From IMG/VR virus record IMGVR_UViG_3300018065_000012: a stretch of 64,000 nt of DNA. One strand, given 5' to 3'. Under the pieces are notes generated by a model. That model saw nothing but the letters and a program-made list of their open reading frames with translations. It did not search any database and was not told where the DNA came from. The position numbers were made by a program, and so were the translations under genes. Shown one piece after another: positions 6,601 to 64,000 of the stretch; the stretch's first letter is position 1; each line of letters starts with the position of its first letter. This DNA comes from a virus (taxonomy: Duplodnaviria; Heunggongvirae; Uroviricota; Caudoviricetes).

Positions 6601-7075
6601 ATTAGATTTAGCAGGTGGTCTTTCTGGTGCTGTTGGCGGGGTACAAGGAATGCTTGGAGGGGCAGTTGCTGCTACTCAAGGAAATCTTGGCGGTTTGTTT
6701 GGAGGTATGCAAGCTGCATTGACTGGTGCATTGACTCCAAAAGTCGGATTAGGGGGCAGGCGCAGAGGTGGAGGCGCACGTCGGCCAGCTGCTGCAAGAA
6801 GACCTGCGCCGTTCCAAAAGGTTGTACCAGAAGCAACAGGGGCAACTGCTGCCACTGCTGCGACAGGTGGCGCAGGTGGCGCAGGGGGAGGAACCGCGAC
6901 AGCCCCGATGCAGAAAGTTCCGATTCAACTCAGCATTAGTTCTGATGGAAAAATTGATATTAGACCGTCTGTTGAAAAAATTGTTTTCGATATGGTTCCG
7001 AAGTTAGTGGCTTCAACAGAGTTTTCTCGTGCTATGAATTCAAACGGTTATCCAAATAAGTATCAACCAACTTAA
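635..7075 (+). CDS. Tail tape measure protein (2146 aa)
   Basis: Very long ORF with extensive coiled-coil (E/K/A/L-rich) segments, Gly/Ala-rich hydrophobic blocks (aa ~620-700 and ~1960-2090) and an internal tandem duplication. It follows a chaperone-like ORF and precedes the tail tip genes. Confidence 0.9.
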   Translation: MPFNIKSLEQQWENLDSKTVDKLISHIDKLSGEVAKAKAKYKDLNNVIKNETDPTKVKQLAIELSEVADAINEGNNAIKQHKANELLKSFESLTDSASDAAGAIGKIKKELGTKEWNEYSRAVGMSGNQLEKEKKRYDALHGDLEKLRKKLLGLVDATKTKGKSDKKTLDNLNKEIKETKRSVDQKKKEISVYEDIAKASKGANKERRSAVEFMRSMGAGPKTEDWARLAKIVDQTKVMKMKEEFEATRKELEAGGKQLIALEFEIEGATDPKEVKRLNDEFDELLDKVQALEETQLGRGTLVAAASDFEKGAEKVTVLGKASEDAKREVDGLGGGLGENATGAIAFGLAIAYAGKQLSDFGTRLLDAQKKWAKYNVQTAIAARTIPDFKGGSQGLDDLRSRLRLTSDEAIRFQDVLKSGSVTGVVSIEQLVSAATKLEEAFGEDPTDRLRTYVELLQQIPTLETDLNITASLDDQAAAWFALAEQGKVQQVIEMQAAGLAGAEEAEMPEGSAAEVEALKTQRDMATALESIEKSLSEYIPNSLSYFTTASGALLQTGATIWSLFVMSKTIKLLLDKIGMTEKISGNKLKDIERDTTKIDVNTDQVESKLDQIKNAKVSPVGGAAAPGGFGRQMLTMQRGTLGGAAGGAVGGAVLAAIETGFNDQLTVHQKAMTAVTGAVGGGIGAALGGPMGAAIGAQIGTSIAGSIDWDAIFGTAAFERSKQAFEEEIIAIEKHTSAIIEATKMQRSALELQRVLGFLKSAVESPIVNLARLNKTVADLTFENLEMGLGASADFSAAMEQGETAITREFSQMKRQFSLARDMIMNNSNLEGKQRQAALASLHKVELEAAKKYAQGLLNLVGRFEDIPAVLRSELQLGIKQAMLDLKIDIGTDVMGDATDDFSAMLADVTNALAESVPEVTKSLRRGAEIIEATTEKFTVGDFNKDMNAVVRGLKGNHKDLVNQFKKTLSKETGFYQVREENAEALKNVIETTQARIKGLKDMPEFDFDVSMLEASEKAFNEFEKAKEKMADLAKAEKEAADFNAEIGRSVLEEFGHRNTMTEKEKAGYKELMKAQAEVRKFAEGGFKIAKESYEQQQKALVVRAKQLGDANDILEWESSLNGVEAEAAKWMKKRLEEMKKQQDIVSEEAQGLQQLVNRMQKIKALQEERNIGLKAQEKTLEGVQKRLRRFVGVLKLGATLIDESGVVQSMERSIATLSKERELAGLMGVNAELSGKEILKTGEKYSKQLTIAKGNLESLKKLAEGGAKAANVMKKVGEQFALIDETISKRFNIEAMAPRLKKAFGKDKAKGFEKLLLDQAEAVKKAFEKFEEKRLAKVGREKLKKFGQNVVDAKKELDKSLAEVSAAAPEVPIDDIKGAFDIMILTTQAFSGGIQETAKKIKKRIAELNLDMAVLPRMLEAQRRAIADSIPQQAARNVLDTAAAMGDLASEMMDSRTAAIAYARSQEAISRGHEDLVDQLKEQEKVVKAVFEGMVLAAKGDPAKLSRIRLQYESEMASLAKERLEAERHVLSASMDALDRRLKADMAGLEIRKEELDIQQDLANTLGWSVGQIFTIQMEQLGAAKQQRDILLEAWKDAEAATGVTERTEQLRLKYVRAAADVQKKALGAQRDAYDKLLDKAFGAIRSARGARRQLMTKAQIFGTGFVQNVASGLVTGGGAMTVAERQARLAGVGGGPRGGRGGGAAPTKPEDKQIKAADTNVDASKRMHDAAEIMWEATSGNRNTMRDFSGVMRNQTFRAGAGPTRHPVNAMVAGGATGRAAVPMAGKPQMVMPVLTSEEKQHFESAKRFYRDAVKEGRTQKDILDSTRAILSGGSDEDKKSADKIITALQVEAGKGRLPKAPKLNPKEKQDFESAKRFYTDAKKEGRTQKDIFGAIRTILSTGEKGNKESADRIVTLLKEETGEKKAVTKAVETTVDSSAKRGLGKRGIRAPIAGVGAGKIPPALQNFLAPITSMADGAGMPGFAGLDLAGGLSGAVGGVQGMLGGAVAATQGNLGGLFGGMQAALTGALTPKVGLGGRRRGGGARRPAAARRPAPFQKVVPEATGATAATAATGGAGGAGGGTATAPMQKVPIQLSISSDGKIDIRPSVEKIVFDMVPKLVASTEFSRAMNSNGYPNKYQPT
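6038..6424 (+). repeat. In-frame tandem duplication (~69 aa x2) inside the tape measure gene
   Basis: Two peptide units, EKQHFESAKRFYRDAVKEGRTQKDILDSTRAIL... and EKQDFESAKRFYTDAKKEGRTQKDIFGAIRTIL..., with roughly 70% nucleotide identity by eye. Confidence 0.7.
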
Positions 7076-32247: not shown

Positions 32248-33663
32248 ATGGAAAAGAATCTTTGGGAACGTAAAGGTATCATCGGCGGTCATGAAATCAA
32301 GCCTGATGACAATATTGATTCTGCCAATAAGGAGAATATGAAAATGGCAAAGGACAAGAAAGACTTAAAGCTTGATCCGAATTTTGGAGACGAATCGCAG
32401 GAGCAAAATATGCCAAAGAGCGAAGAAAAACCAACGGAGGAAATTGTAGAAGCGCCAGCAGCAGGACTGTTTGTTCCAAATATTCCAATGCCTGTAACGG
32501 CAGAGGAAAGCAAGGAAATAATTAAGGACCAGTGCGAAGTAGCGTTCAAGATTGCTTTTGTTGGTGCAGGTCAAGCTGGCGCGAGGATGGTTGAAGCGTT
32601 CTACAAACTTGGTTATCGCCGCGTTTGTGCTGTAAACACAACCAGTCAAGACCTTGTTGCAATTGATATCCCAGATGAAAACAAGTTTGTTATGGACATT
32701 GGGGAAGGCGGCGCAGGCAAGGAACCAGAGAAGGGCGAACAGGCAGTCAAAAAGCATTATGAGAACGTTTATGATCTGATGCGTCGGAGTTTTGGAAAAG
32801 ACTTCGAACGGATTATTGTTTGTATCGGCGCTGGGGGAGGAACGGGTAGTGGATCAATTGAAACATTGATCGATATTGCTCACGACATTGCAGAGTCTTT
32901 CAAACTGGAAGGCGGACCGGAACAGGTACCGGCTGTTGGCGCGTTGGTTTCAATGCCGATGTCCAATGAGAGTCAGAAAGTAAACGCTAACGCTTCAAAA
33001 GTTCTTGAGGTTCTTTTTGGACGTGTTGGAAAAGACAAAGGTGGAAGATTGTCTCAAAGGACGATGTCGCCATTGATAGTTGTCGACAATGACAGAATCA
33101 GCAAACTATATCCGGGGTTGCCAGTTACGCAGTTTTGGAGCGTCGCAAATCAAAGCATCAGTGGGCTATTCCACTTGTTTAACAACATTGCGGCTGCGAA
33201 AGGCGAAAATACAATTGCGACGTTTGACCGTGCAGATTTCGCAGATGTCCTCAAGAGTGGCGTAATTACATTTGGAGCAACACCATTGATCAAATGGCAG
33301 AACGAAACGGATATCAGTTTTGCAATCAGAGAGAATTTGAAGCATAACATTCTTGTTGCTGATATTGATTTAGGCTCTGCGGCTGTTGCAGCAGGCGTTG
33401 TAATTGGCAAGGACAAAATTTTGAATTCTGTCCCGCAAGATTATTTGAACCATGGATTTGAAATGCTTGGACGGATCATGAAAACAAATAGCGTTGTCCA
33501 TCGTGGAATCTATAAGTTGGGAGAAGCGATGGATAACGTAAAAGAACAGCCGGATTTAGTCGTTTACACAGCATTTGGAGAACTCGGAAAGCCAGACGCA
33601 AGAATGGAAGAAATTCAACGTCTTGGCGCAGTCGATCAACAAAACAGAATGCGTTTGAGATGA
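32248..33663 (+). CDS. Tubulin/FtsZ-family GTPase (PhuZ/TubZ-like)
   Basis: Glycine-rich loop FVGAGQAGARM and the tubulin signature IGAGGGTGSGS (GGGTGSG). An alternative start with a strong SD is at 32344 (aaggagaatATGaaaATG). Confidence 0.75.
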   Translation: MEKNLWERKGIIGGHEIKPDDNIDSANKENMKMAKDKKDLKLDPNFGDESQEQNMPKSEEKPTEEIVEAPAAGLFVPNIPMPVTAEESKEIIKDQCEVAFKIAFVGAGQAGARMVEAFYKLGYRRVCAVNTTSQDLVAIDIPDENKFVMDIGEGGAGKEPEKGEQAVKKHYENVYDLMRRSFGKDFERIIVCIGAGGGTGSGSIETLIDIAHDIAESFKLEGGPEQVPAVGALVSMPMSNESQKVNANASKVLEVLFGRVGKDKGGRLSQRTMSPLIVVDNDRISKLYPGLPVTQFWSVANQSISGLFHLFNNIAAAKGENTIATFDRADFADVLKSGVITFGATPLIKWQNETDISFAIRENLKHNILVADIDLGSAAVAAGVVIGKDKILNSVPQDYLNHGFEMLGRIMKTNSVVHRGIYKLGEAMDNVKEQPDLVVYTAFGELGKPDARMEEIQRLGAVDQQNRMRLR

Positions 33664-36092: not shown

Positions 36093-37013
36093 ATGACCAA
36101 AATTATTGTCTACGCGGATTTCCACGTCACTGGAAAACGCCCCATCCACCGCATTGATAAATTTTCTAACAACCTGATAGCAAAGTTACTTGAGGTTTAT
36201 CAGATTGCGGATGACGCCGCAGTCGACTGCGCGCTTTTTCTGGGCGATTTTTTCAATAATCATCGCATTTTTAGTTACGAAATCCTCAATGACGTGATGG
36301 ATATTATTTGTGATGCGAGGGTGACGACTTACGCAATCATTGGGCAACACGATTTAGTTGGATACAACGAGGGCAGTTATGCTTCGTCAACGTTGAATTT
36401 TATGGAGAGACATTGCTGTCAACTTAAAACGATCCGCACTCCGACAGATGTTGGCGATGCGATTTTGTACCCTTGCCATTGCTATGATAATTTTTTGCAA
36501 GCATTCGAACGGCCTGTATCGAGAAAAAAGAAGGCAATTCTTGCCGCGCATCATCTTATCACGGATTCGAGCAAGCCTTTCAAAACGTACTTAATTCAGG
36601 ATTTTCTGCCCTGCAACTACAGCGCTGTTGTGTTTGGTGATTATCATTTAGGAATGAAACCCAGCGGTGACGACAAGACGTTAGTTTGGTCTCCCGGCGC
36701 ATTGGCGCGACTTGCGATCAACGAAAAAGGCCGTAAGGTTAAGGTAGGAATATTGACAGCAGTTCCGGGCAAGCCGGTTGAAGTTGAAGAAATCGAGTTG
36801 AAGTCTGCGCTGTCGGGAGAGGAAGTTTTCGGAACATCAATCTTAGAAGGCGTGCGAGAACAACCGGAGATGGTAGACGCATCAGGATTCGTCCAACGGA
36901 TTCGCGAACTCGAAGCCGAATCTACTGACGTCTTTGATATGATTGAAAAGGCAGCAAAGCAAAAGGGCATCCGGAAGGAAGTTATTGACTATATTTTGAA
37001 AAAAAGAGCATAA
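36093..37013 (+). CDS. Mre11/SbcD-like calcineurin-fold nuclease
   Basis: Phosphoesterase motifs YADFH (I), LGDFFNNH (II), IGQHD (III), AAHH (IV), VFGDYH (V). Confidence 0.75.
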   Translation: MTKIIVYADFHVTGKRPIHRIDKFSNNLIAKLLEVYQIADDAAVDCALFLGDFFNNHRIFSYEILNDVMDIICDARVTTYAIIGQHDLVGYNEGSYASSTLNFMERHCCQLKTIRTPTDVGDAILYPCHCYDNFLQAFERPVSRKKKAILAAHHLITDSSKPFKTYLIQDFLPCNYSAVVFGDYHLGMKPSGDDKTLVWSPGALARLAINEKGRKVKVGILTAVPGKPVEVEEIELKSALSGEEVFGTSILEGVREQPEMVDASGFVQRIRELEAESTDVFDMIEKAAKQKGIRKEVIDYILKKRA

Positions 37014-43832: not shown

Positions 43833-44179
43833 TTGAAGGATTAAACATCGGTACGTATATCAGAGTGAAGACAAAAACGTTGGAAGACAAATTTGGAACA
43901 TGTGTTTACAAAATTGAAGGCCCAGAAGAAGAAGCAGAATTAGGCGGGCAAAAAATAATCAAAGTGAAATGTGTCATGCTTGGCGGGAGCGGACCGGCTG
44001 CGCGTTCTGGTATTCCAGTTTGGGATACTTGGGAAATACTTGAACAGAATATCAAAAATGGTATTACGGAAATCATTTCAGAAGAGGAAGCAAAAAAAGC
44101 TGAAGCACATTATGCTTCTCAGAAAGACGCTTTTGATAAACAACACTCTGGAACAGGAGCGTTTGAAATCGATGTCTGA
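43829..44179 (+). CDS. Hypothetical protein (116 aa)
   Basis: ATGA overlap with the DHH gene. Confidence 0.4.
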   Translation: MIEGLNIGTYIRVKTKTLEDKFGTCVYKIEGPEEEAELGGQKIIKVKCVMLGGSGPAARSGIPVWDTWEILEQNIKNGITEIISEEEAKKAEAHYASQKDAFDKQHSGTGAFEIDV

Positions 44180-44678
44180 TGTTATCGTTGATTGCGAGAA
44201 GTGTGATAAACGTTTTCTTTGTTGTCGGCATACGTTACGGGTTCAATTGGAACCGGACGAAGTAGAGAAGTACAAATGCGAGCCAGCAATCAAAGAACGT
44301 AAAGACATTCACATTGTCGCGCATGAAAATGGATTGTGTTATTATTTCAACCCATTTACACGAAAGTGTAAGATTTGGGATCAGCGGCCAAAGACGTGTC
44401 GGGAGTATGATTGCAAAACCGATCCACGCGTCGAAGAGATTCTTGCAAAAAGTGATCTGCAACCACTTCCAACAACAGACCAAAAATATAGGGTTTGTAT
44501 TTCTGTAGCGATTCTTTTTGAAAAGGATGAACGTAAAGTTTCGCCCATGATGACTTATTCCAATCATGGTCCGACAGCAGCAGACGTAATTGAAATACGC
44601 GGCAACGGTGAACAACTTATCAAGAGTGCGAAGATGATGTTGGAACACAACCTTCGTGAACAGTTGATTATGGAGTGA
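44172..44678 (+). CDS. CxxCxxCC-type putative zinc/iron-chelating domain protein (YkgJ-like)
   Basis: DCEKCDKRFLCCRH and CYYFNPFTRKCKIWDQRPKTCREYDC match the CxxCxxCC...C-x-C family pattern. Confidence 0.55.
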   Translation: MSDVIVDCEKCDKRFLCCRHTLRVQLEPDEVEKYKCEPAIKERKDIHIVAHENGLCYYFNPFTRKCKIWDQRPKTCREYDCKTDPRVEEILAKSDLQPLPTTDQKYRVCISVAILFEKDERKVSPMMTYSNHGPTAADVIEIRGNGEQLIKSAKMMLEHNLREQLIME

Positions 44679-45212: not shown

Positions 45213-47111
45213 ATGGCTGATTATGATGCTTCAAGTATTCGAGTTTTGAAAGGGTTGGCGGGCGTTCGCAAGCGTCCTGCTATGTATATTGGCGATACAG
45301 GCAAGTCCGGTTATCATCATTTGGTCTGGGAAATCCTTGATAATTCCATCGATGAAGCGGTAGCGGGATTTTGCAAGAACATTGCGATCAAATTCGCAGA
45401 TGATGGTCGTGTTCAGATTAACGATGATGGACGCGGAATTCCTGTTGAAAAACACCCCACTGAAAAAATTCCCACCGTCGATGTTGTGCTTACAATGCTT
45501 CATGCTGGTGGAAAATTTGGCGGGACCGACACAAAATACCGAACGTCGGGTGGCCTTCATGGTGTAGGTGCCGCAGTAGTCAATGCGCTTTCAGAACGCA
45601 TGACCGTCACAATTAAGCGTGATGGGAAAATTTACCTGCGAGAATATGAGCAAGCGAAGCCCACGAAGAAAGAAGTTGATGTAGTTGGTAAGTGCGGAAA
45701 ACGCGAAACAGGGACAGAAATCATTTTCAAGCCAGATAAGTCGATTTTCAAGCGGTGCGAATTTGATAAAGAAATCATTCAGCGAAGGCTGAGAGAATTG
45801 GCTTTTTTGAATGCCGGTTTGAGGATCAAGCTGTTCTGGGCGCTTGATGGAACAGAGGAAGAATTTTGCTCCAGCGACGGTCTCGTGGGCTACGTGAATT
45901 ATCTTACAAAAAGTAAAGAGTTGATTCATGGCCCAGTGAGAATGCATTCTGGCGATATTGAAGGAAGCGAACTCGATATTGCTTTCGTCTATGACAAAAA
46001 ATATGACTCGCAGATTCACTCCTTTGCGAACAACATAGCGACACACGAAGGTGGAGTTCATTACAATGCTTCGTTAGATGCGCTTTGCAAAGCGGTTGAA
46101 GATTACGCTGCCCCGCAAATCAAGAAGTTGCGGCTTCGTATTAACAAAAGCGACGTGATGGAAGGTTTGACGATGATCGTCAGCGTGCGTATTGAAGACC
46201 CGCAATTTGGCGGTCAGACAAAGACGAAGCTTGGGAATGATGATTTGCGCCGTCCGTTGGGAGAATGGATTCAGGGTAAAGTTCTCAAATTGCTCAAAAA
46301 GCACCGTCAGCACGGCGATGCGATTGTTTCAAAAATCATCGATGCGGTCAAGGTCAGGGACGCTGCCAGAAAAGCAAAAGAAGTTCAGAGAAAAAAGAGC
46401 GTCATGGAGATGTCCGCATTGACTGGAAAGCTCAAGGATTGCACGAGCAAAGACCCTGAGCTGTGTGAACTGTTTTTGGTTGAAGGAGATAGCGCCGAAG
46501 GCCCAACGGTTCAAGCGCGAGACCGGCAATTTCAAGCTGTCCTGCCGCTACGCGGAAAGCCGTTGAATATTCACGGCAAACCATTGGGTCGATGCTTAGG
46601 AAACAAGGAAATTGCTTCGATTGTTTCTGCGTTGGGCGTTACAATTACAAAACGGGAAGTTTTGATTGATGACTTGCGTTATCATAAAATCATTCTTCTT
46701 GCGGACGCCGATCCTGATGGTGGTCACATCACTTGTCTTTTGATGACGATGTTTCACGAATTCATGCGCAAGCTTATCGAAGCAGGACACCTGTATGTTT
46801 GTGAAATGCCCTTGTACCGAGTACGATATAAGGGCAAAGGTAGTTACATCAAAGATGCCGCTGCGTTGGATGAGTTCAAATCAGAACATCCCGGTGAAAA
46901 AATTGAAGTCAGCCGTTTCAAAGGTTTAGGAGAAATGAGAGTTGAAGACCTTGAAGAAACGGCAACAAACCCAAACACGCGTGTTTTGCGCCAAGTGAAA
47001 ATCGAAGATCAAGTTCAGGCGCATGAAATTGTAGATTGTTTGATGGGTAGCGACGTTCAGGCAAGGAAATTATTTCTTAAGAAGTCGCTTCGCTTTGAGG
47101 ATGATGAATAA
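45213..47111 (+). CDS. gyrB: Type IIA topoisomerase subunit B (GyrB/ParE-like)
   Basis: GHKL ATPase [30 protein letters not shown] and PLRGKPLN. An alternative TTG start is at 45198. Confidence 0.9.
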
Positions 47112-49543
47112 TGACGCAAACGCAACAGCAACCGCAAATGCCCAACGTTAAGATCACAGACCTTGTGGATGAAATGAAGAATAACTATTTGACGTATGCA
47201 GAATACGTCATTCGGGAACGGGCTATCCCTGACGTGCGTGATGGTTTGAAGCCTGTTCACCGCCGAATTCTCTGGGCTATGTGGGAAGGCGGTTACAAAA
47301 GCACTTCGCCTTACCGAAAAAGCGCGAGAGTTGTTGGCGATTGCATGGGTAAGTATCATCCGCACGGAGATAGTTCAATTTACAGCGCAATGGCGCGGTT
47401 GGCGCAGCCGTTTTCGTTAAACCAAATTCTTGTTGACGGGCAGGGCAATTTTGGCAGCGTAGATAATCCGACTCCTGCTGCTTACAGGTATACCGAAGCC
47501 CGTCTTTCAAAGTTTTCTGAAGCCGTCTATTTCGCGGACATTGAAGAAAGTACCATAGATTTTATTGACAACTATGACGGTCTTGAAAAAGAACCGTCAG
47601 TTCTCCCAACGCGAATTCCGATGATCCTTTTGACTGCGCCAAGCGGAATTGCAGTTGGAATGGCTACAGATATTCCACCGCACAATTTGAATGAAGTTTG
47701 CGATGCGACGCTGGCATATTTGTCCGATCCAAACATTGATGTCAAAAGTCTCCTCGCTTTCATTCAAAGCCCTGACGTTCCGCTGGGCGGTTTGATCAGG
47801 ATTGACGGTTGCAAAGACGCTTATGAAACGGGCCACGGTTCGTTTCCTTACCGCGTAGTTGCAGAGTTTGAATCTGAGGGTAATCAAAAGAGTATCGTCA
47901 TAAAATCCATTCCTTATTCGTCTTGCAAAGACGACATCGTGCGTGAAATTGCGATGGCCGTGAATGAGGACAAGATTTCTGGGATCAAAGAAGTTCGCGA
48001 TGAATCGACAAAACATGGGATCAGGATTTGTGTTGAAGTTGCGGCACGGTCTGATTCCAATGCGGTTTTGAATAGCATTTTCAAGCACACAAGATTGCAG
48101 TCAAATATCAAAGCCAATATGGTCGCTATTTGTGGGAAACAGCCAAGGGTTGTTGGGTTGAAAAACATCTTGGACGCTTTTGTGACTTTCCGGCGAGATG
48201 TAGTCCGGAGGCGTACGATTTTCCGCAAGCAGAAGGCAGAGCAGCGCAAGGAAATCATTGATGGAATCTTGATTTTCCTTTCCAAAGCAGATCAACTGAT
48301 CAAGATTGTTCGTGCTGGTACAGATACGGAAAAAACGCTTGTAGAATTGATGAAACACAGTCTCAGTAGGCGACAAGCGGAGCATGTTTACAATATGCCG
48401 TTACGCCGGTTGTCTGCGCAGGACGAAAAGAAGCTGAAAGATGAGTTGGCGGAAATTACGCCTTATATTCAAGAGCAGCAAGACATCTTGAAAGACAAGT
48501 CAAAACTTGATGGCGTAATCCGCAAAGAGATCAAAGAAATTCAGGACAAGTTCGGGGTGACGAGAAGGACGCAAGTCACTTCTGACTTTTCCTCTATTGA
48601 AGCAAAGGATACGATCAAGGAACAACGGGTTTCCTTGATTTTCCTGTCGGATGGAACGGTGAAATCGACGCCCATTGACGATTATCGCCTTCAAAAGCGT
48701 CGGGGTCAGGGAGTCAGTGGCGTGAAGGTTCCTGACGGCGTAGTGCCAGATTATGTCGGTCAGGCAAGTACCCACGATAATGTGATGGTCTTCACAGATC
48801 AGGGTCACCGCTATCGCTTGGGCGTTCATTTAATTCCGGCGCTGGGTCGTGGGAAAAAGCCGCAACCGCTTCAGAATTACATTCCTTTGTTTCAACCGGG
48901 GGAACGTGTGGTTTCCGTTACAAAGGAAAAGCTGAACGACGATGAGTGCTTGGTAATGCTTGGCTCTCAAGGCAAGCTTCGCAAACTGAAAGCAAAAGTA
49001 GTTAATAAAACGCAAGACAAAACAACGGAATTCTATCCAGTGAGCGCTGGTGGGCGCGTAGTGTCTGCCATTGTAGCGAAAAGCGATGACGAGATTATCA
49101 TGCTTTCAAAGATTGGAATGGTTCTTAGAACGTCATTGACTAACATTCGAGAAGTTGCTTCGAGAAAATCAGTCGGTTCAAGAGGAATCAAACTTAAAAG
49201 CGGTGATGAGGCTTTGTCAGTTTCAGTAGTGCCAAAGGAAGGGCATCTTCTCACTGTCAGCAAAAGCGGTTTTGGAAAACGTACCGACTTGAAACATTAT
49301 ATCGCGAAAGGTAGGGGAAGAAAAGGTTCAAAAGGAATCAAATTGACAGATGGCGATGAGTTGTTGTTCGGACAGGCAATAATGGCAACGGAAACCGAAG
49401 CAAGCTTGTTCATCATTACAAACAAGAATGTTGCTATTCGTTTGAGATTCAATAGCGTTCCAAGTCAAGGTCGGACGGCAAGAGGAACTGCCGTAAAAAA
49501 GCTTGAGGATGATGAAGTTATTGCTTCTGTAGCAGTGGAATGA
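47111..49543 (+). CDS. gyrA: Type IIA topoisomerase subunit A (GyrA/ParC-like)
   Basis: [20 protein letters not shown] and [15 protein letters not shown] (active-site region). ATGA overlap with gyrB. Confidence 0.9.
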
Positions 49544-52061: not shown

Positions 52062-52514
52062 ATGTCTGACGCTGACTCTTTTGAATTCGATGTTCCCGAA
52101 GAACTCAAGGCATGGATTGAATTTCAAGAAAGTCATGTCAACGGGTTCAATACACCGGAAATCTTCCACTACATCCTTGAAAAAGGGAAGATCAAAAGGG
52201 CTGGCCTTATTGAAATGGCGAAGTGGTTTGAGCAAAACCCCGCAGCCAGAAGCGTCGACAAGACGACGATAAATGACGAAGTGTGGGTCAGTACCACCTT
52301 CCTTTGCATTGATCACAACTTCTTGTGTTTTGCAGAGCCGTGGGAAGGCGTAAAAGCAGAAGACAAGCGCCCGATACTTTTTGAGACGATGATCTTTGGC
52401 GGTGAATACGATAAATATCAAGTCAGGTATCACACGCTTGTTGAAGCCAAAAAAGGGCATTGGGAAGCAGTCGACATTGCAAAAGGACATAAGGCTGCCC
52501 CGGAGGGATGGTAA
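52062..52514 (+). CDS. Hypothetical protein (150 aa)
   Basis: Co-oriented ORF immediately after ligA. Confidence 0.4.
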   Translation: MSDADSFEFDVPEELKAWIEFQESHVNGFNTPEIFHYILEKGKIKRAGLIEMAKWFEQNPAARSVDKTTINDEVWVSTTFLCIDHNFLCFAEPWEGVKAEDKRPILFETMIFGGEYDKYQVRYHTLVEAKKGHWEAVDIAKGHKAAPEGW

Positions 52515-52759
52515 TGGATTTGCGCAGGTTTGGTCCAAAGCGAGAAGAGGATTGTGACATCGAGAACGTGTGCCCGGCTTGTGCCAAGCCATTCAAACCG
52601 GGAGACTACACGACATTGATTGCGCTTGGGCCGGGAGACGATCCCGAGGCCCAAAAAAGGTGTCGCGAGGGTAGGCCATATAACGCCATTGCGAAGGAAG
52701 TTCACTGGGCTTGTGCTACGGGGAAAACCGATGGAGAAAGAACAGAAAAAGACGGATAG
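52508..52759 (+). CDS. Small hypothetical Cys-containing protein (83 aa)
   Basis: CPACAKPF...HWACATG. Its 3' end overlaps the ClpS start. Confidence 0.3.
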   Translation: MVMDLRRFGPKREEDCDIENVCPACAKPFKPGDYTTLIALGPGDDPEAQKRCREGRPYNAIAKEVHWACATGKTDGERTEKDG

Positions 52760-53015
52760 TGAAAGCAAAACACGCCTTGCGCCAATGTGGAAGGTATTGC
52801 TTCACAACGACGACAACAACTCAATGGAACATGTTGTTCGTGCGTTGCAAGAGACATTCAAATTTGACGCTATGAAGGCAGTGAGGATTATGTATGAAGC
52901 GCACAACAGCGGGGTTGCGCTTTGCAAGGTTGAGTATCTTGAACATGCTGAATGGCATCGAGATGCGCTCAGGTCGTTCAGTTTGGGAGCCACGATTGAG
53001 CCAGAAAATGATTAA
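52728..53015 (+). CDS. clpS: ClpS-like ATP-dependent Clp protease adaptor
   Basis: MWKVLLHNDDNNSMEHVVRALQETFKFDAMKAVRIMYEAHNSGVALCKVEYLEHAE aligns with E. coli ClpS [56 protein letters not shown]. The ORF is open from 52620. Confidence 0.75.
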   Translation, partial: PMEKEQKKTDSESKTRLAPMWKVLLHNDDNNSMEHVVRALQETFKFDAMKAVRIMYEAHNSGVALCKVEYLEHAEWHRDALRSFSLGATIEPEND

Positions 53016-57287: not shown

Positions 57288-57306
57288 TATAGAAGGAGGA
57301 TAGTTG

Positions 57307-58611
57307 ATGTTATTGGGCTTGGAGATGATCAATTTTGAAAATCACAAACATACGCGTCTTGAATTTGGAGAAGGCTTCAATGTTCTGTTCGGCCCGAGTA
57401 ATACAGGAAAAACGTCAGCCGTCCGCGCTTTGCGATTGGTAGCTTATAACGAATGGGACCCTGAGTGTTTGCGGTTAGGAACTAAAAAGAGCACGGTGAT
57501 TGCAAGAACAGACAAGGGAACCGTCAAGGTAGAGCGTGGAAAGAATATCAACAATTGGGAAATCACGCCGTTGAACGGGAAGACAATCTGTTTCTCTCGT
57601 CCCGGAAAAAACGTCATTCCAGAAGCTGCTGAAGTGATGGGTCTCAACGCCATTGAGTTGGGATCGTATTCGATTCAGCCAAATATCATGGATCAGCTGG
57701 AAGGGCATTTCTTTTTGGCTGAAGTTGATGGGGAGAAAGTTTCAGGTTCGAGTCGTGCTCAGATAATTGATGAAATTAGTGGCTTAGCTGGAATGGAAGA
57801 GCTTGTCCGGCAAGTTGGTCTTGACAACATCAGGAATTCGCGTTCGGTAAAACAGCTTGAGACGTCAGTTAAAGACCTCGAAAAACAGAAGAATGATGAA
57901 GCGCAGTTAGAAAAAGAGAAAACGCTTTTGAATTCGATAGAGCAAAAGTTGATAACGGCAAAAAAGAAAACGGAGTCAGCGTCTAAAGCATATGAGATGA
58001 GTTCTGAAGCAGTAAAAGTAAGTGAAAATTTGAGCAAGTGTTTGAAGCAGATCGAGCATTATGAAGGGCTGGACGTTGCAGCGGATAAACTGGAGCAGGC
58101 TGAAGAGAAGCGTGAAAAAACGGCTAAGCAAAATGGGTTCATACGGGATTGGAAAACTGCGGATACAGAATTGAGTCAAAGCATTCTCAGACTTCAAAAA
58201 CTACCCAATTTGAGCGTTGCAGACGAAAAGCTTATCAAAGCCTCAGAAAAGCGCGAGAAGCGTATAGAAGCGCTCAAAATCGTTGAATTACACACGGAAA
58301 AGAGTCGAGGTTTGGAGGAAATGCAGACTCGTCAATCCGCCATTGGGGAAGTCTCTGAATCTGAGGAATCCATTTCATTAGCTCGCAAAGCTTTACAAGC
58401 TGTTATAGAGACAAGTAGCTTTATTCAACGGCGTGAAACCTTGTTGGTTTCTTTGAACGGAAATATAGAAGCTCAAGAGGCAATTCAAGAAAAACTTTCA
58501 GGAGCAGAAAGACAAAAGAATGAAGCAATGAAGGAAATTGATTTGTGTCCCATTTGTTTGAAACCAGTACACGAAGGGTGCGACGCATACTGCTCTGGAG
58601 AACAAGAATGA
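57307..58611 (+). CDS. Rad50/SbcC-like protein, N-terminal half only (Walker A head, coiled coil, CxxC zinc hook); no C-terminal ABC half present
   Basis: N-terminus LEMINFENHKHTRLEFGEGFNVLFGPSNTGKTSAVRALRLV (Rad50 N-terminal Walker A). About 330 aa of coiled coil (E/K/L/Q-rich). C-terminus DLCPICLKPVHEGCDAYCSGEQE ends at the hook. No signature LSGG or Walker B anywhere in the window. Confidence 0.65.
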   Translation: MLLGLEMINFENHKHTRLEFGEGFNVLFGPSNTGKTSAVRALRLVAYNEWDPECLRLGTKKSTVIARTDKGTVKVERGKNINNWEITPLNGKTICFSRPGKNVIPEAAEVMGLNAIELGSYSIQPNIMDQLEGHFFLAEVDGEKVSGSSRAQIIDEISGLAGMEELVRQVGLDNIRNSRSVKQLETSVKDLEKQKNDEAQLEKEKTLLNSIEQKLITAKKKTESASKAYEMSSEAVKVSENLSKCLKQIEHYEGLDVAADKLEQAEEKREKTAKQNGFIRDWKTADTELSQSILRLQKLPNLSVADEKLIKASEKREKRIEALKIVELHTEKSRGLEEMQTRQSAIGEVSESEESISLARKALQAVIETSSFIQRRETLLVSLNGNIEAQEAIQEKLSGAERQKNEAMKEIDLCPICLKPVHEGCDAYCSGEQE

Positions 58612-60859: not shown

Positions 60860-62017
60860 ATGATTGAACGATTTGGCGATGTTACATATCTTTCAGGCGA
60901 ACTCATAAAAGGCAAAATCGTCCAGCAACCATTTTTGGCAAAGGGCGATTTTTTGCATGCCGTTTCTGTTGAGTTTGCAACGTTTCAACGCCGCAATGCT
61001 TGTTTGATGAAAATTGAGATTTGGAGAGACGATAAAAACATTAAAACCCACTCTGTGAAAGCAGATTATTTTGAAGACAATGTTTACAAAAAATTCGTCG
61101 TTGACTTAGAACTGGAAAAAGGGCAGCTCTATGAGATTAAAATTTATTCGCCAGATGGAGCAAATGGAAATGCGCTTACTGTAAAACATGGCGCACCGCT
61201 TCACAGAGACCTTCAATTAAAATTCAATGGCGCTCTTCAATCTGGCGAGTTGGCTTGTTTGTTGCATTACGGGAAAGACAAAGACAATGAAATTGAAATT
61301 TTACCTGCCGTTAAAACAACTCCAGAATTTGCTTCAAAGGAAAAGCCGGAACTCAGTATTATTATTCCAACGGCAAAACGTCTTGATCATCTCAAGAATT
61401 GTCTTGACAGCTTGCGGGCGCACACAAAAAATTATGAATTGATAGTGATAGTCAACACGCCTGAAACAGCTTTTACAATCAGCGTTGTAAAGTTACTCAA
61501 TCTTTATCCTAATCACACCATGATCGAAATTCCAAATTATGCAGGGTATGTTGTTCCTTGTAATATGGGTGCTGCTATTTCAAAAGGAAAGTATCTTTGT
61601 ATCTTGAACGACGACGTTATCGTTCAAAAGGATTGGTTGATACATATGATGGCAGCGTTGAAGGCCGATCCAAAATTGGCACAAGTCGGTCCTTCAATGG
61701 GTCATCTGAAATCAGATTTCAGTTTTGTAAACCGTAAAACAAGTCGCCCTTATATTGAGGGTTGGTGTTTCGTTGTCCCAAGGTGTATTTATGAAAAGTT
61801 GGGGTTGTTTGATCCAGAAATTGATTTTGCCTATTGCGAAGATTCAGATTTTTCAACAAACTTGATTCATCATGGTTACAAGATTCGTGAAGTGAAAGCA
61901 AACATCGTCCATATTCGGCATCAAACAAGCAAATCATCAGGAAATGAAATGAAGGAATTCACCGATAGGTGCGAAATTCGCAACAAGAATTTTCTCAGAA
62001 AGAAATGGGCCAAATGA
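60860..62017 (+). CDS. Family 2 glycosyltransferase (GT-A) with N-terminal extra domain
   Basis: LSIIIPTAKRLDHLKNCLDSLRAHT...YELIVIVN, the DXD-type ILNDDVIV, and GWCFVVPRCIYEKLGLFDPEIDFAYCEDSDF. Confidence 0.8.
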   Translation: MIERFGDVTYLSGELIKGKIVQQPFLAKGDFLHAVSVEFATFQRRNACLMKIEIWRDDKNIKTHSVKADYFEDNVYKKFVVDLELEKGQLYEIKIYSPDGANGNALTVKHGAPLHRDLQLKFNGALQSGELACLLHYGKDKDNEIEILPAVKTTPEFASKEKPELSIIIPTAKRLDHLKNCLDSLRAHTKNYELIVIVNTPETAFTISVVKLLNLYPNHTMIEIPNYAGYVVPCNMGAAISKGKYLCILNDDVIVQKDWLIHMMAALKADPKLAQVGPSMGHLKSDFSFVNRKTSRPYIEGWCFVVPRCIYEKLGLFDPEIDFAYCEDSDFSTNLIHHGYKIREVKANIVHIRHQTSKSSGNEMKEFTDRCEIRNKNFLRKKWAK

Positions 62018-62505
62018 ACGAGACAACAAAGATACGACCATTGGCAATAAAGTATTGTGAGGGTTGCGGAATCGATCTTGGTTGCGGCGACGAAAAGATT
62101 CGCCCAGAGGCGATTGGAATTGACGCTGGGATGGATGTGATTCATAGCGGGATAAAAGAATGGCGTGATTTGTCTGTTGTAAATATCAAACACAAAATTG
62201 TTAACCTAAACCTGTTTGAATCAAACAGTTTTAGCTATGTTTACAGTAGTCACTTTTTAGAACATCTTGCTGATCCAGAATTGATGTTAAAAGAAATGAC
62301 GCGTGTGACCTGTCCCGGTGGTCATGTAGTTGTTTATTTGCCCGATCGTTTATTGTACACACAACCAAATTCAGAGCACAAACACATGTGGACATTAGAT
62401 GAGTTTTTGAATTTGCTTCCCGATTGCTTGGAAGTGGTCGAGAACATAGCAAAACATGAAGATTACAGTTTTTTCATTGCGGCTAAAAAGAGAACAAGCG
62501 AATGA
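62014..62505 (+). CDS. Class I SAM-dependent methyltransferase
   Basis: Motif I IDLGCGDEKI, post-I FSYVYSSHFLEHL, and LKEMTRVTCPGGHVVVY. ATGA overlap with the GT2 gene; alternative starts at 61969 and 62005. Confidence 0.65.
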   Translation: MNETTKIRPLAIKYCEGCGIDLGCGDEKIRPEAIGIDAGMDVIHSGIKEWRDLSVVNIKHKIVNLNLFESNSFSYVYSSHFLEHLADPELMLKEMTRVTCPGGHVVVYLPDRLLYTQPNSEHKHMWTLDEFLNLLPDCLEVVENIAKHEDYSFFIAAKKRTSE

Positions 62506-63290
62506 TTTATGATTGCTTCCCGTTTTTCAACGAGCTTGAAATCCTTGATATTCGTTTGAACACGTTGAACAACGTTGTCGATAAGTTCGTAATCAGCGAG
62601 AGTACGCGAACGCACAGCAATGAGTCAAAACCCTTATACTTTCATGAAAATAGAAATCGTTGGGAGAAGTTTGAGCACAAAATTATTCACGTTGTAATTG
62701 ATGATATGCCACAAGGCGAAGACCATTGGGAAAGAGAACGTTATCAACGCAACGAAATGATCCGTGGGCTTGACAATATCAAGGACGGCGACTCTGTTCA
62801 TGTTTCTGATGCGGATGAAATTTCTTCTCCGGTGGCCATTTTAAGAGCGTTGAAGAAAAGGTCTCGCGTGCGAATAAGTCATGTTTGCTATTACTATTAT
62901 TTCAACCTTGTTGCAAATTGGGATTGGACGCATGCGTACGTAATGCCGTGGAGAGAATTCAAAGCGCATCACAATCCTACGCTTACTCATTTCCGACATC
63001 TTGGTTGCAATCGCAAAGTGAAAGGAGGCTGGCACTTTTCTTATTTGGGGGGTACCGAGCAGGTATGTAAGAAGATTAAAGCTTTTGCTCATCAGGAATT
63101 TAACACTCCCGAAACGCTTGCTACTATCAAAACTGCAATTGCTAAGAAACGTTCCTTTTGTGATTTGAATACGGAGTTTACAAGTGTAGTGAATATAGAT
63201 GGTAGCTATCCTGCATACGTACGAGATAATATTGAAAAGTACCGTAAAATGGGTTATGTTTGGGAAGGGGAGAAAGTTGTGCCGCTATGA
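62502..63290 (+). CDS. Glycosyltransferase family 17-like (beta-1,4-GlcNAc-transferase-like)
   Basis: MIYDCFPFFNELEILDIRLNTLNNVVDKFVISESTRTHSNESKPLYF matches the conserved GT17 N-terminal block. DXD-like HVSDADEI. Confidence 0.7.
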   Translation: MIYDCFPFFNELEILDIRLNTLNNVVDKFVISESTRTHSNESKPLYFHENRNRWEKFEHKIIHVVIDDMPQGEDHWERERYQRNEMIRGLDNIKDGDSVHVSDADEISSPVAILRALKKRSRVRISHVCYYYYFNLVANWDWTHAYVMPWREFKAHHNPTLTHFRHLGCNRKVKGGWHFSYLGGTEQVCKKIKAFAHQEFNTPETLATIKTAIAKKRSFCDLNTEFTSVVNIDGSYPAYVRDNIEKYRKMGYVWEGEKVVPL

Positions 63291-64000
63291 ACTATGTGCT
63301 TGTACTTTCAGACGAATTGACGCTTGTTGTTGATAAGATGATTCATTCGGTTTTGCAACATTGTGATTGTAAGATTTTGTTTCATGCAATTTCTTTTTCT
63401 GATAAAGACAAGGCAACTGTTGAAAAATGGAATAACAGGATTGAATTTTATGACGTGATTCAAAGCAAGTGGGATGATAGAAGGATGCTTTGTAGAATAG
63501 AATGTTTAGCTGGAACAAAGTTTTCGGCTGGCGATAAAGTATTTGTATTGGATACTGATATGCTTGTTCAAGCAGATATTTTTGAAGACCTTCCAAAAGG
63601 AGATGTGTACATAACAAGCAGACATTATCCTTATTGGTACCCGATCAACGGAGGAACGGTTGGATTCAATTACAATAAGCGATCAAAACAATTCATTGAT
63701 TTCCGATTTGAACAAGGCTTGAATCCAACATGGACTCCTTATGTTAAATTTCGCAAAAAATTTGATCGTGGGAGAGGTTTCGATTGGTGGTGTGATCAGG
63801 ATATGCTTTGCACTGTTCATGAAAATTTGCTCCCGTTTGAATGTCACGTAACTGATCTTGGCCCAAAATATAATTTTTGTCCAAGCGTAGAGTTTAATAT
63901 CCCTGACTCATTTGATAAAGCACGTAAAGAAATTCTTGAAGCTATTGGAAGGCCCGAATACAAAATACTTCATTTCAAAGGGAAGTTAAAAGAAGTGTTG
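63287..64000 (+). CDS. Putative nucleotide-sugar glycosyltransferase (GT-A, DXD), 3'-partial at the window end
   Basis: VFVLDTDMLV (DXD) and WWCDQDML. The ORF runs off the end of the window and is not in the ORF track. Confidence 0.45.
   Translation, partial: MNYVLVLSDELTLVVDKMIHSVLQHCDCKILFHAISFSDKDKATVEKWNNRIEFYDVIQSKWDDRRMLCRIECLAGTKFSAGDKVFVLDTDMLVQADIFEDLPKGDVYITSRHYPYWYPINGGTVGFNYNKRSKQFIDFRFEQGLNPTWTPYVKFRKKFDRGRGFDWWCDQDMLCTVHENLLPFECHVTDLGPKYNFCPSVEFNIPDSFDKARKEILEAIGRPEYKILHFKGKLKEVL

What the first reader, a model, noticed from the sequence alone, without database searches (positions are those of the whole stretch)
52728..53015. Phage-encoded ClpS (N-degron adaptor for ClpAP)
The product aligns with bacterial ClpS across the whole adaptor core (WKVLLHNDDNNSMEHVV...AVRIMYEAHNSGVALC...AE). 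A phage-borne ClpS could retarget host ClpAP proteolysis, for example to degrade host or defence proteins, or to protect phage proteins from N-end rule degradation. A small Cys-containing ORF (52508..52759) overlaps its start. Such a gene is uncommon in phage genomes.
Basis: partly seen in the sequence, partly recalled or inferred. Interest (0 to 1): 0.6.

Follow-up and report, generated by a model that had tools for sequence, protein, structure and literature searches.

The report
ClpS protease adaptor in huge phage
A very large uncultivated phage carries an intact, well-conserved copy of the bacterial ClpS adaptor, which probably redirects the host's Clp protease during infection; ClpS genes are already known in giant phages, so this is a new example, not a new kind of thing.

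Summary
Window 52731..53015 (+) encodes a 94-aa ClpS.

- **Family evidence:** Pfam PF02617 scores 68 bits against a cutoff of 23. The AlphaFold model superposes on solved ClpS structures at 0.7-0.9 Å.
- **Key residues:** The N-degron contacts N26, D27/D28 and H58 are kept. So are the gatekeeper Met32, the pocket residues and the two acidic docking residues E71/E74. A disordered tail of about 17 residues is also present.
- **Setting:** The gene lies in the replication module of a one-strand element on contigs up to 338 kb. A tape-measure-like gene and a weak tail-tube match support a phage, but no capsid or terminase was seen.
- **Conservation:** ClpS is the best-conserved shared protein (67% and 61%) in two collinear relatives, with saturated synonymous change.
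- **Origin and partner:** Its closest cellular relatives are Nitrospirota ClpS (56-65%). It is the short-loop ClpS1-like type that works with ClpC in cyanobacteria, actinobacteria and plastids.
- **Novelty:** Phage ClpS is rare overall but already described and annotated in about 30 GenBank jumbo phages. No experimental study turned up in my searches.

Verdict: a genuine, probably functional gene and a new member of a known kind. Interest is moderate to low.

The parts
52731..53015 (+). clpS gene, 94 codons plus TAA stop. It encodes a ClpS-family N-degron adaptor.
   Evidence: Pfam PF02617 68.2 bits, E 5e-19. The same 94-aa product is called on 14 contigs. AF2 model pLDDT 85 with the ClpS fold.
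52720..52724 (+). Shine-Dalgarno-like GGGGA, 6 nt upstream of the ATG.
   Evidence: Read from the sequence. Other window genes use GAGG/GGAG/AGGA at the same distance. This is a weak consensus match only.
52731..52781 (+). N-terminal extension, residues 1-17 (MEKEQKKTDSESKTRLA). It is disordered and ends at the junction Pro18.
   Evidence: pLDDT is below 50 for residues 1-13. SKTRLAP is shared with the syntenic relative L011. P18 is nearly invariant in alignment A1.
52800..52835 (+). Strand beta1 to helix alpha1 segment L24-H25-N26-D27-D28-N29-N30-S31-M32-E33-H34-V35. It carries the N-degron alpha-amino contacts (N26, D27, D28), the gatekeeper Met32 and pocket residues L24 and V35.
   Evidence: Alignment to E. 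coli ClpS L32..V43. The residue list comes from PMC12493166. L24, H25, N26, D27, N30 and V35 are invariant in A1, and D28 and M32 are at least 90% conserved.
52890..52904 (+). M54..H58 of helix alpha2. M54 and A57 line the pocket, and H58 contacts the N-degron amino group (E. coli M62, V65, H66).
   Evidence: Alignment. H58 is invariant, and M54 and A57 are at least 90% conserved in A1.
52941..52958 (+). Helix alpha3 docking segment E71-H72-A73-E74-W75-H76. It corresponds to E. coli E79..K84, which binds the ClpA N-domain.
   Evidence: E71, A73 and E74 are invariant in A1. The two acidic residues are those reported as conserved in ClpC-partnered ClpS. E. coli K84 is replaced by H76.
52514..52759 (+). 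Neighbouring 81-aa ORF with a CxxC...HxxC motif. It abuts the upstream gene (TAATG) and overlaps clpS by 29 nt. It is probably co-translated with clpS but is not shown to be functionally linked.
   Evidence: 530 cluster representatives at E<=1e-3. C20, C23, H64 and C67 are invariant. It is absent from the ClpS neighbourhood of relatives L011 and L127. No Pfam, PHROG or NCBIfam match.

Best explanation
The gene encodes a working ClpS-family N-recognin made by a huge tailed phage and expressed with its DNA replication and recombination genes. Its folded core would dock on the N-terminal domain of the host's double-ring Clp unfoldase, using helix alpha3 (E71, E74). That unfoldase is ClpA or, given the ClpS type, possibly ClpC. 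Its disordered tail of about 17 residues would enter the unfoldase pore. Its pocket (N26, D27/D28, H58, with Met32 as gate) would hold proteins that begin with Phe, Leu, Trp or Tyr. Extra phage-made ClpS would then act as a specificity switch on the host Clp protease, as E. coli ClpS does. It would give faster removal of N-degron proteins, and slower degradation of substrates the unfoldase recognises directly, such as ssrA-tagged proteins. Shown here: family identity, fold, conservation of the functional residues, purifying selection, and fixed position in a phage clade. Inferred: the partner, the substrates and the benefit to the phage.
For: Family and fold: Pfam 68 bits. The top 38 Foldseek PDB hits are all ClpS, with AtClpS1 at rmsd 0.8 Å and TM 0.95, M. 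smegmatis ClpS at 0.7 Å and E. coli ClpS at 0.9 Å. The secondary structure is beta-alpha-alpha-beta-alpha-beta with a disordered N-terminus. Functional residues: of the pocket and contact residues listed for C. crescentus and E. coli ClpS, the window keeps L24, N26, D27, D28, M32, V35, M54, H58 and L85. V65 becomes Ala. The two non-conservative changes, V33 to His and T38 to Asn, are the same as in peptide-binding AtClpS1. The docking glutamates are invariant. Selection: against the syntenic relative L011, pN is 0.29 and pS is 0.98, which is saturated. ClpS is the most conserved shared protein in the collinear loci L011 and L127, at 67% and 61%, compared with gyrA at 53% and 48% and ligase at 46%. 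Base composition has drifted towards each genome. Mechanistic template: the ClpS specificity switch and tail-in-pore delivery (PMC9663308), and ClpS with ClpC in other phyla. Context: tight one-strand gene packing and no plus-strand terminator-like site in 49.5-55.5 kb.
Against: There is no biochemical evidence of any kind. The partner unfoldase is unidentified. No clpA, clpC or clpP was seen in the window or the roughly 10-kb flanks. The host is unknown. E. coli K84, the salt-bridge residue to ClpA, is His here. All NCBIfam ClpS equivalog models score below their cutoffs, the best being 82.4 against 107. Phage identity rests on weak structural-gene matches (phrog_167 at E 6e-7, Phage_tube_2 'weak'). 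The large proteins tested have no match in GenBank phages.
Confidence: 0.6

Rival explanations
1. The protein has the same biochemistry, but the benefit to the phage is inhibition. Phage ClpS would saturate the host unfoldase and block degradation of directly recognised substrates, for example phage proteins, or antitoxins whose loss would trigger abortive infection. N-degron delivery would be incidental.
For: ClpS inhibits ssrA-type and related substrates and lowers ClpA ATPase activity (PMC9663308). Phage-clade ClpS differ from cellular Nitrospirota ClpS inside the docking helix, with H72 in place of Q. That difference could reflect tuned binding.
Against: The N-degron pocket and gatekeeper Met are fully conserved under purifying selection. 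A pure blocker would not need them.
Confidence: 0.2
2. The adaptor serves a phage-encoded Clp unfoldase or ClpP located elsewhere in the genome of at least 338 kb, rather than the host enzyme. Agrobacterium phage Atu_ph07 is annotated with its own ClpA, ClpX, ClpP and ClpS.
For: Atu_ph07 precedent (PMC6102473). ClpP occurs in some jumbo phages (PMC7824862). I could inspect only about 85 kb of a contig of at least 338 kb.
Against: None of the roughly 90 genes seen in the window and flanks is a Clp ATPase or ClpP. Iyer et al. describe phage ClpS as occurring 'instead' of ClpP.
Confidence: 0.1
3. The element is not a phage but a megaplasmid or a piece of a cellular genome, and this is ordinary housekeeping ClpS.
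For: No capsid, portal or terminase gene was seen. The replication genes are bacterial-type (Pol III alpha, gyrase, NAD ligase, DnaB). The 838-aa and tubulin-like proteins have no match in GenBank phages.
Against: There is a 2146-aa coiled-coil, Gly-rich tape-measure-like protein (phrog_167; sequence). It is preceded by a tail-tube-like gene and small ORFs. Other hits include UvsX-like recombinase phrog_97 at E 6e-77, phrog_1987, 8735, 4771 and 159, and a primase. All genes lie on one strand, most have no Pfam match, and the window holds no rRNA, tRNA or metabolic genes. Cellular relatives sit in quite different contexts.
Confidence: 0.05
4. The ClpS fold is used for something other than Clp delivery, for example as a stand-alone binder of N-termini or of a phage protein.
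For: clpS is not adjacent to clpA or clpC, here or in the closest cellular relatives. The ClpS-like fold also occurs in non-Clp proteins such as UBR1 and L7/L12 (ranks 40-49).
Against: The docking glutamates, the tail and the junction proline, all specific to unfoldase engagement, are conserved.
Confidence: 0.05

Closest known systems
Arabidopsis chloroplast ClpS1 (PDB 7d34), and cyanobacterial and actinobacterial ClpS that partner with ClpC
   Same: It is the best solved-structure match by sequence (E 5e-9 over residues 16-92) and by fold (rmsd 0.8 Å). Both have the short alpha3-beta3 loop, a 6-residue gap relative to E. coli, and the H-N-D-x-x-N motif. The C-terminal ...L..[ST][IV]EP[DE] is also shared.
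   Different: The window protein keeps D28 where AtClpS1 has Asn. It keeps the Met gatekeeper where AtClpS1 has Arg. Its predicted specificity is therefore the classical F/L/W/Y. Identity is only 38%. It is encoded by a phage-like element.
Nitrospirota cellular ClpS (for example MDH4162177.1, and MAG loci L012-L021)
   Same: Identity is 56-65%, up to 72% for some metagenome sequences. Length is the same, about 95 aa, and all invariant columns are shared. In the NJ tree the window protein lies just outside this clade.
   Different: The cellular genes sit beside a YkgJ-type CxxCxxCC gene in bacterial neighbourhoods at 55-64% GC. The phage-group proteins have H72 instead of Q, and mostly Ala instead of Cys at position 50.
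E. coli and Caulobacter ClpS, the ClpAP N-end-rule adaptor (PDB 1mbu, 2w9r, 3o2b, 3dnj)
   Same: The fold is the same (rmsd about 0.9 Å). N34, D35, D36, M40, V43, M62, H66, E79, E82 and L99 are conserved, and there is a disordered N-terminal extension.
   Different: Identity is about 33%. T38 becomes N, V33 becomes H and K84 becomes H. The alpha3-beta3 loop is 6 residues shorter and the tail is shorter (17 against 25 residues). The gene is not in a clpS-clpA operon.
ClpS genes of cultured jumbo phages (Pseudomonas PA5oct group, Agrobacterium Atu_ph07 gp708, Sinorhizobium Phosso, Cronobacter GAP32, Yersinia fHe-Yen9, and others), and the AMM43882.1 example of Iyer et al. 2021
   Same: This is the same phenomenon: a small stand-alone ClpS gene in phages of 280-490 kb, proposed to bring targets to host ClpAP. 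PHROG 27368 already groups such proteins.
   Different: Those are proteobacterial-type ClpS, and the window protein does not detect them by tblastn. The window gene represents an independent acquisition from a different bacterial lineage, in an uncultivated phage clade absent from GenBank phages and apparently from IMG/VR, where the best match is 43% identical.

Membership tests
ClpS (Pfam PF02617) | Score above the Pfam gathering threshold across the adaptor core | tested here: met
   68.2 bits against 23, covering residues 17-82 and profile positions 3-68 of 80.
ClpS (NCBIfam equivalog models NF000668-672, NF009561-565) | Score above the curated equivalog cutoff | tested here: not met
   The best is NF000671 at 82.4 bits against a cutoff of 107, and all nine models fall below their cutoffs. 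These are narrow lineage-specific models, so this argues for a divergent lineage rather than against the family.
ClpS | Alpha/beta ClpS fold (beta1-alpha1-alpha2-beta2-alpha3-beta3) | tested here: met
   AF2 core pLDDT above 90. The top 38 Foldseek PDB hits are all ClpS, at rmsd 0.7-0.9 Å. This is a predicted structure, not a solved one.
ClpS | N-degron alpha-amino contacts (E. coli N34, D35/D36, H66) | tested here: met
   N26, D27, D28 and H58 are present. N26, D27 and H58 are invariant in the 35-sequence alignment, and D28 is at least 90% conserved.
ClpS | Hydrophobic specificity pocket and Met40 gatekeeper | tested here: met
   L24, M32 (gatekeeper), V35, M54, A57 and L85 are present. V33 to H and T38 to N match AtClpS1, which binds N-degron peptides.
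ClpS | Unfoldase N-domain docking residues on helix alpha3 (E. coli E79, E82, K84) | tested here: inconclusive
   E71 and E74 are conserved and invariant. K84 is replaced by H76. This surface is reported to vary between clades.
ClpS | Disordered N-terminal extension with a proline junction, needed for hand-off | tested here: met
   There are 17 residues before P18, and pLDDT is below 50 for residues 1-13. P18 is nearly invariant. It has one proline rather than the 'few tandem prolines' typical of orthologues.
ClpS | Binds ClpA or ClpC and delivers F/L/W/Y N-degron substrates | not testable with these tools
   This needs biochemistry. No partner gene was found in the sequence I could reach.
ClpS (proteobacterial clpS-clpA operon type) | Gene adjacent to clpA | tested here: not met
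   The neighbours are an NAD ligase, a 150-aa ORF, the 81-aa C2HC ORF and a 515-aa ORF. The closest cellular relatives also lack an adjacent clpA or clpC.
Tailed (huge) phage genome | Virion hallmark genes (major capsid, portal, terminase, tail) | tested here: inconclusive
   There is a tape-measure-like 2146-aa protein (phrog_167 E 6e-7) and a Phage_tube_2 'weak' gene upstream of the window. PHROG scans of the upstream tail-region ORFs found nothing. Capsid, portal and terminase genes were not within reach.

The most novel reading that the evidence does not exclude
A clade of huge phages has kept a ClpS captured from a Nitrospirota-like lineage as a core gene, more conserved than its gyrase or ligase. 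It uses this ClpS as a counter-defence device. By flooding the host ClpA or ClpC unfoldase it would both stop Clp-dependent turnover of antitoxins or phage proteins and send host proteins clipped during infection, which expose new F/L/W/Y ends, to destruction. The phage-specific change in the docking helix (H72) would let it out-compete the host's own ClpS. That would be the first viral takeover of a bacterial N-degron pathway.
Probability: 0.12. Interest if true: 0.7.

Novelty: new member of a known kind. Interest (0 to 1): 0.3.

Why it matters
Phages are known to disarm or borrow host proteases, but in my literature searches I found no experimental study of a phage-encoded ClpS. This example shows three things. 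ClpS has been acquired independently by very different giant phages. It can become a conserved core gene of a phage clade. It keeps every residue needed to read N-degrons. That makes it a reasonable candidate for testing whether viruses reprogram the bacterial N-end-rule pathway. As a genomic observation it adds to a catalogue rather than opening a new category.

Tried and rejected
1. A Zn-ribbon plus ClpS two-gene cassette captured from bacteria. One bacterial locus, L009, has a Zn_ribbon_8 gene upstream of ClpS. However, the window's 81-aa ORF, the 79-aa ORF of L011 and the L009 protein are unrelated in sequence, and the 81-aa ORF is not shared by L011 or L127.
2. Co-capture of ClpS with its Nitrospirota neighbour, the YkgJ-type CxxCxxCC gene. 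The window's CxxCxxCC protein (44172-44678) is not a close homologue: BLASTP gives E 0.018 over 15 residues.
3. Near-identical or related DNA in GenBank phages. None was found by megablast over 15 kb, and tblastn with the 838-aa and tubulin-like proteins found nothing.
4. Walking out of the window to find capsid, terminase or Clp genes. The 2146-aa protein is not on record. Look-ups reach only 10 kb beyond window genes, and proteins outside the window cannot be queried. The walk yielded only a weak tail-tube match upstream and a glycosyl/methyl-transferase and radical-SAM cluster downstream.
5. Own promoter or terminator for clpS. The scans gave nothing above the shuffled expectation.
6. Deciding ClpA against ClpC from the literature on Nitrospirota. 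One comparative study of acidophiles found clpC only in Bacillota and Actinomycetota. This does not settle it for the unknown host.
7. Recent transfer or assembly chimera. This is rejected because the same protein occurs on 14 contigs from several samples, and ClpS composition tracks each relative's genome.

Full report
**What is there.** The ORF frame containing the finding opens at 52620. The ORF ends with TAA at 53013-53015. The 94-aa product is MEKEQKKTDSESKTRLAPMWKVLLHNDDNNSMEHVVRALQETFKFDAMKAVRIMYEAHNSGVALCKVEYLEHAEWHRDALRSFSLGATIEPEND. Gene callers on 14 independent metagenome contigs call exactly this product. A GGGGA Shine-Dalgarno-like element lies 6 nt upstream, at the distance other window genes use. 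The gene overlaps the preceding 81-aa ORF by 29 nt. That ORF in turn abuts the 150-aa ORF before it (TAATG). No plus-strand terminator-like site occurs between 49.5 and 55.5 kb, and promoter-like matches do not exceed the shuffled expectation. I therefore infer that clpS is read as part of a long transcript together with the ligase region.

**Is it ClpS?** Yes.
- Pfam PF02617 scores 68.2 bits against a cutoff of 23, E 5e-19. PHROG 27368 matches at E 4e-11.
- All 72 database homologues carry PF02617.
- The AlphaFold2 model, built on a 35-sequence alignment, has mean pLDDT 85 and above 90 in the core. It shows beta1(19-25)-alpha1(32-43)-alpha2(47-60)-beta2(62-69)-alpha3(70-82)-beta3(86-91), with a disordered N-terminus.
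- Its top 38 Foldseek matches in the PDB are all ClpS. These include Arabidopsis ClpS1 (rmsd 0.8 Å, TM 0.95), M. smegmatis ClpS (0.7 Å) and E. coli ClpS (0.9 Å).
- The only negative is that all NCBIfam ClpS equivalog models fall below their strict cutoffs, the best being 82.4 against 107. I read this as lineage divergence.

**Functional residues.** I used the residue lists for C. crescentus and E. coli ClpS quoted in PMC12493166, the description in the M. smegmatis study, and the alignments. E. coli numbering is window numbering plus 8.

| Role | E. coli residue | Window residue |
|---|---|---|
| N-degron amino-group contact | N34 | N26 |
| N-degron amino-group contact | D35 | D27 |
| N-degron amino-group contact | D36 | D28 |
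| N-degron amino-group contact | H66 | H58 |
| Gatekeeper | M40 | M32 |
| Pocket | L32 | L24 |
| Pocket | V43 | V35 |
| Pocket | M62 | M54 |
| Pocket | V65 | A57 |
| Pocket | L99 | L85 |
| Pocket, non-conservative | V33 | H25 |
| Pocket, non-conservative | T38 | N30 |
| Unfoldase docking | E79 | E71 |
| Unfoldase docking | E82 | E74 |
| Unfoldase docking | K84 | H76 |

- The two non-conservative pocket changes are subfamily-wide. They are identical to Arabidopsis ClpS1 (LHNDNFN), which was crystallised with an N-degron peptide.
- E71 and E74 are invariant across the 35-sequence alignment. They are the two acidic residues reported as conserved even in ClpC-partnered ClpS.
- The N-terminal extension is 17 residues and ends at a nearly invariant proline. 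In E. coli this tail enters the ClpA pore and is needed for hand-off.
The residues are kept.

**What kind of ClpS, and from where.**
- In one-genome-per-species bacterial and archaeal genomes, the best matches are all Nitrospirota MAGs (56-65% identity). Phycisphaerae, Chloroflexota, Actinomycetota and many cyanobacteria follow at 39-55%.
- The protein has the short alpha3-beta3 loop, a 6-residue gap relative to E. coli. This loop characterises the cyanobacterial, actinobacterial and plant ClpS1 type.
- In those lineages the partner is ClpC, not ClpA.
- Whether the Nitrospirota-type ClpS uses ClpA or ClpC could not be settled.
- In a neighbour-joining tree the window protein groups with P0002, P0006, P0004 and P0017 just outside the cellular Nitrospirota clade.
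- These phage-group proteins share His at position 72, inside the docking helix, where the cellular Nitrospirota proteins mostly have Gln.

**Context: is it a phage?**
- The exact protein lies on contigs up to 338,319 bp.
- Nearly all long ORFs of the 64-kb window are on the plus strand.
- The window encodes a 2146-aa coiled-coil and Gly-rich protein with a weak tape-measure match (phrog_167, E 6e-7). Just upstream of the window this is preceded by a gene with a weak Phage_tube_2 hit and four small ORFs.
- A large replication and recombination module follows. It includes SNF2 helicase, DnaB, primase, UvsX-like recombinase (phrog_97, E 6e-77), exonuclease, a tubulin-like protein, SbcD-like nuclease, Pol III alpha, DHH phosphoesterase, gyrase B and A, NAD ligase, then ClpS, an AAA_23 ATPase and RuvC.
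- Glycosyl- and methyl-transferase and radical-SAM genes lie downstream. There are no tRNAs.
- No capsid, portal or terminase gene was within reach. There is no DNA or protein match to GenBank phages for the regions tested.
- I rate a huge tailed phage as very likely but not proven.

**Conservation in relatives.**
- Two metagenome contigs, L011 and L127, are collinear with the window.

| Shared protein | Identity to window, L011 | Identity to window, L127 |
|---|---|---|
| gyrA | 53% | 48% |
| NAD ligase | 46% | not shared |
| ClpS | 67% | 61% |
| AAA_23 ATPase | 36% | 54% |
| RuvC | 52% | 50% |
| Glycosyltransferase | 52% | not shared |
| Methyltransferase | 58% | not shared |

- ClpS is the most conserved shared protein. 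The genes around it (the 150-aa, 81-aa, 515-aa and 274-aa ORFs) are not shared.
- Between the window and L011, synonymous sites are saturated (pS 0.98) while pN is 0.29. This indicates strong purifying selection.
- ClpS GC content follows each genome. It is 45.6% in a 43% window, 40% in a 36% locus and 52% in a 55% locus. Cellular Nitrospirota genes are 56-58% GC.
- The gene is therefore an old, maintained resident of this phage clade. It is not a recent pick-up or an assembly artefact.

**How it probably works.** By analogy with E. coli ClpS and ClpC-partnered ClpS, the core docks on the unfoldase N-domain, the tail enters the pore and the pocket holds F/L/W/Y N-termini. Extra adaptor made by the phage would shift the host Clp protease towards N-degron substrates and away from directly recognised ones. 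Which of the two effects benefits the phage cannot be decided from sequence. Full conservation of the pocket argues that N-degron binding matters. It also remains possible that a phage-encoded Clp partner lies elsewhere in the genome, as annotated for Atu_ph07.

**Comparison with what is known.**
- Phage-encoded ClpS is already in the literature. Iyer et al. 2021 state that several jumbo phages encode their own ClpS, likely bringing targets to host ClpAP (PMC7824862). Atu_ph07 gp708 is annotated as ClpS (PMC6102473).
- tblastn with E. coli ClpS finds 27 GenBank phage records, and a viral-type ClpS query finds 22. Nearly all are jumbo phages of 284-490 kb, and many are annotated clpS.
- IMG/VR yields at least 29 further viral contigs, including an abundant lineage of about 101 aa with Phe in place of the gatekeeper Met.
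- The window's protein does not detect the proteobacterial-type phage ClpS. Its phage clade is absent from GenBank phages and apparently from IMG/VR, where the best match is 43% identical. It therefore represents an independent acquisition.
- I found no experimental study of any phage ClpS.

**The small upstream ORF.** The Cys-containing ORF is a real gene. It has 530 cluster representatives at E<=1e-3 and 233 at E<=1e-10. The invariant residues are C20, C23, H64 and C67, a CxxC...HxxC motif. It has no Pfam, PHROG or NCBIfam family. It is not next to ClpS in the relatives, so nothing links it functionally to ClpS beyond the overlap.

**Verdict.** The ClpA partner and the rarity-as-novelty argument need tempering. 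This is a new member, from an independent lineage, of a known kind. Interest is 0.3.

Noticed in passing
window 52514-52759 (+): The 81-aa ORF belongs to a large uncharacterised small-protein family, with 530 cluster representatives at E<=1e-3. It has an invariant CxxC...HxxC motif and conserved FGPK, GDYTTL..LGPG and GRPYNAVA.EVHW.CATG blocks. It has no Pfam, PHROG or NCBIfam model.
   Followed up: partly
window 32248-33663 (+): A tubulin/FtsZ-family protein (Pfam Tubulin E 3e-11, Tubulin_2 E 2e-5) sits in the replication module. It has no PHROG match and no tblastn match in GenBank phages. It may be a divergent PhuZ/TubZ-like filament protein.
   Followed up: partly
window 635-7075 (+) and locus L126 1-3543: A 2146-aa coiled-coil protein with Gly-rich hydrophobic stretches matches tape-measure phrog_167 weakly. 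Upstream of the window it is preceded by a weak Phage_tube_2 gene and four small ORFs. If it is a tape measure, it implies a very long tail.
   Followed up: partly
loci L007, L008, L009, L012, L019, L020, L021; window 44172-44678: In Nitrospirota and related bacterial loci, clpS is repeatedly followed by a YkgJ-type CxxCxxCC (PF03692) gene and is not next to clpA or clpC. The window also encodes a CxxCxxCC protein 8 kb upstream, but it is not a close homologue (BLASTP E 0.018).
   Followed up: yes
locus L011 746-3715 against window 47111-49543: The gyrase A gene of the syntenic relative carries an intein (989 aa, Intein_splicing). The window's gyrA (810 aa) does not.
   Followed up: no
window 52941-52958 (ClpS residues 71-76) and alignment: ClpS from phage-like contexts (window, P0002, P0006, P0017, P0030) have His between the two docking glutamates (E-H-A-E). 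Cellular Nitrospirota ClpS mostly have Gln there. Cyanobacterial ClpS1 also have His.
   Followed up: no
loci L097, L099-L121 (IMG/VR contigs): An abundant viral ClpS lineage of about 101 aa (YKVLLHNDDxTTFDFV...) has Phe in place of the gatekeeper Met. It occurs on contigs from 5 kb to 385 kb. This suggests altered N-degron specificity.
   Followed up: no
window 52062-53015: The three genes ending with clpS form a slightly GC-richer islet (46%, 53% and 46% GC; GC3 about 50-52%). Window genes as a whole are 43% GC (GC3 40%), and the next gene is 39.6%.
   Followed up: partly
window 60860-64000 and locus L122 10001-20789: A long run of glycosyltransferase, methyltransferase, PIG-L deacetylase and radical-SAM/SPASM genes lies downstream of the replication module. 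It could serve DNA or virion glycan modification.
   Followed up: no
window 36093-37013 and 57304-58611: An SbcD-like nuclease (phrog_100) and an AAA_23/AAA_15 SMC-type ATPase are encoded 20 kb apart. The ATPase keeps its place downstream of ClpS in both relatives.
   Followed up: no
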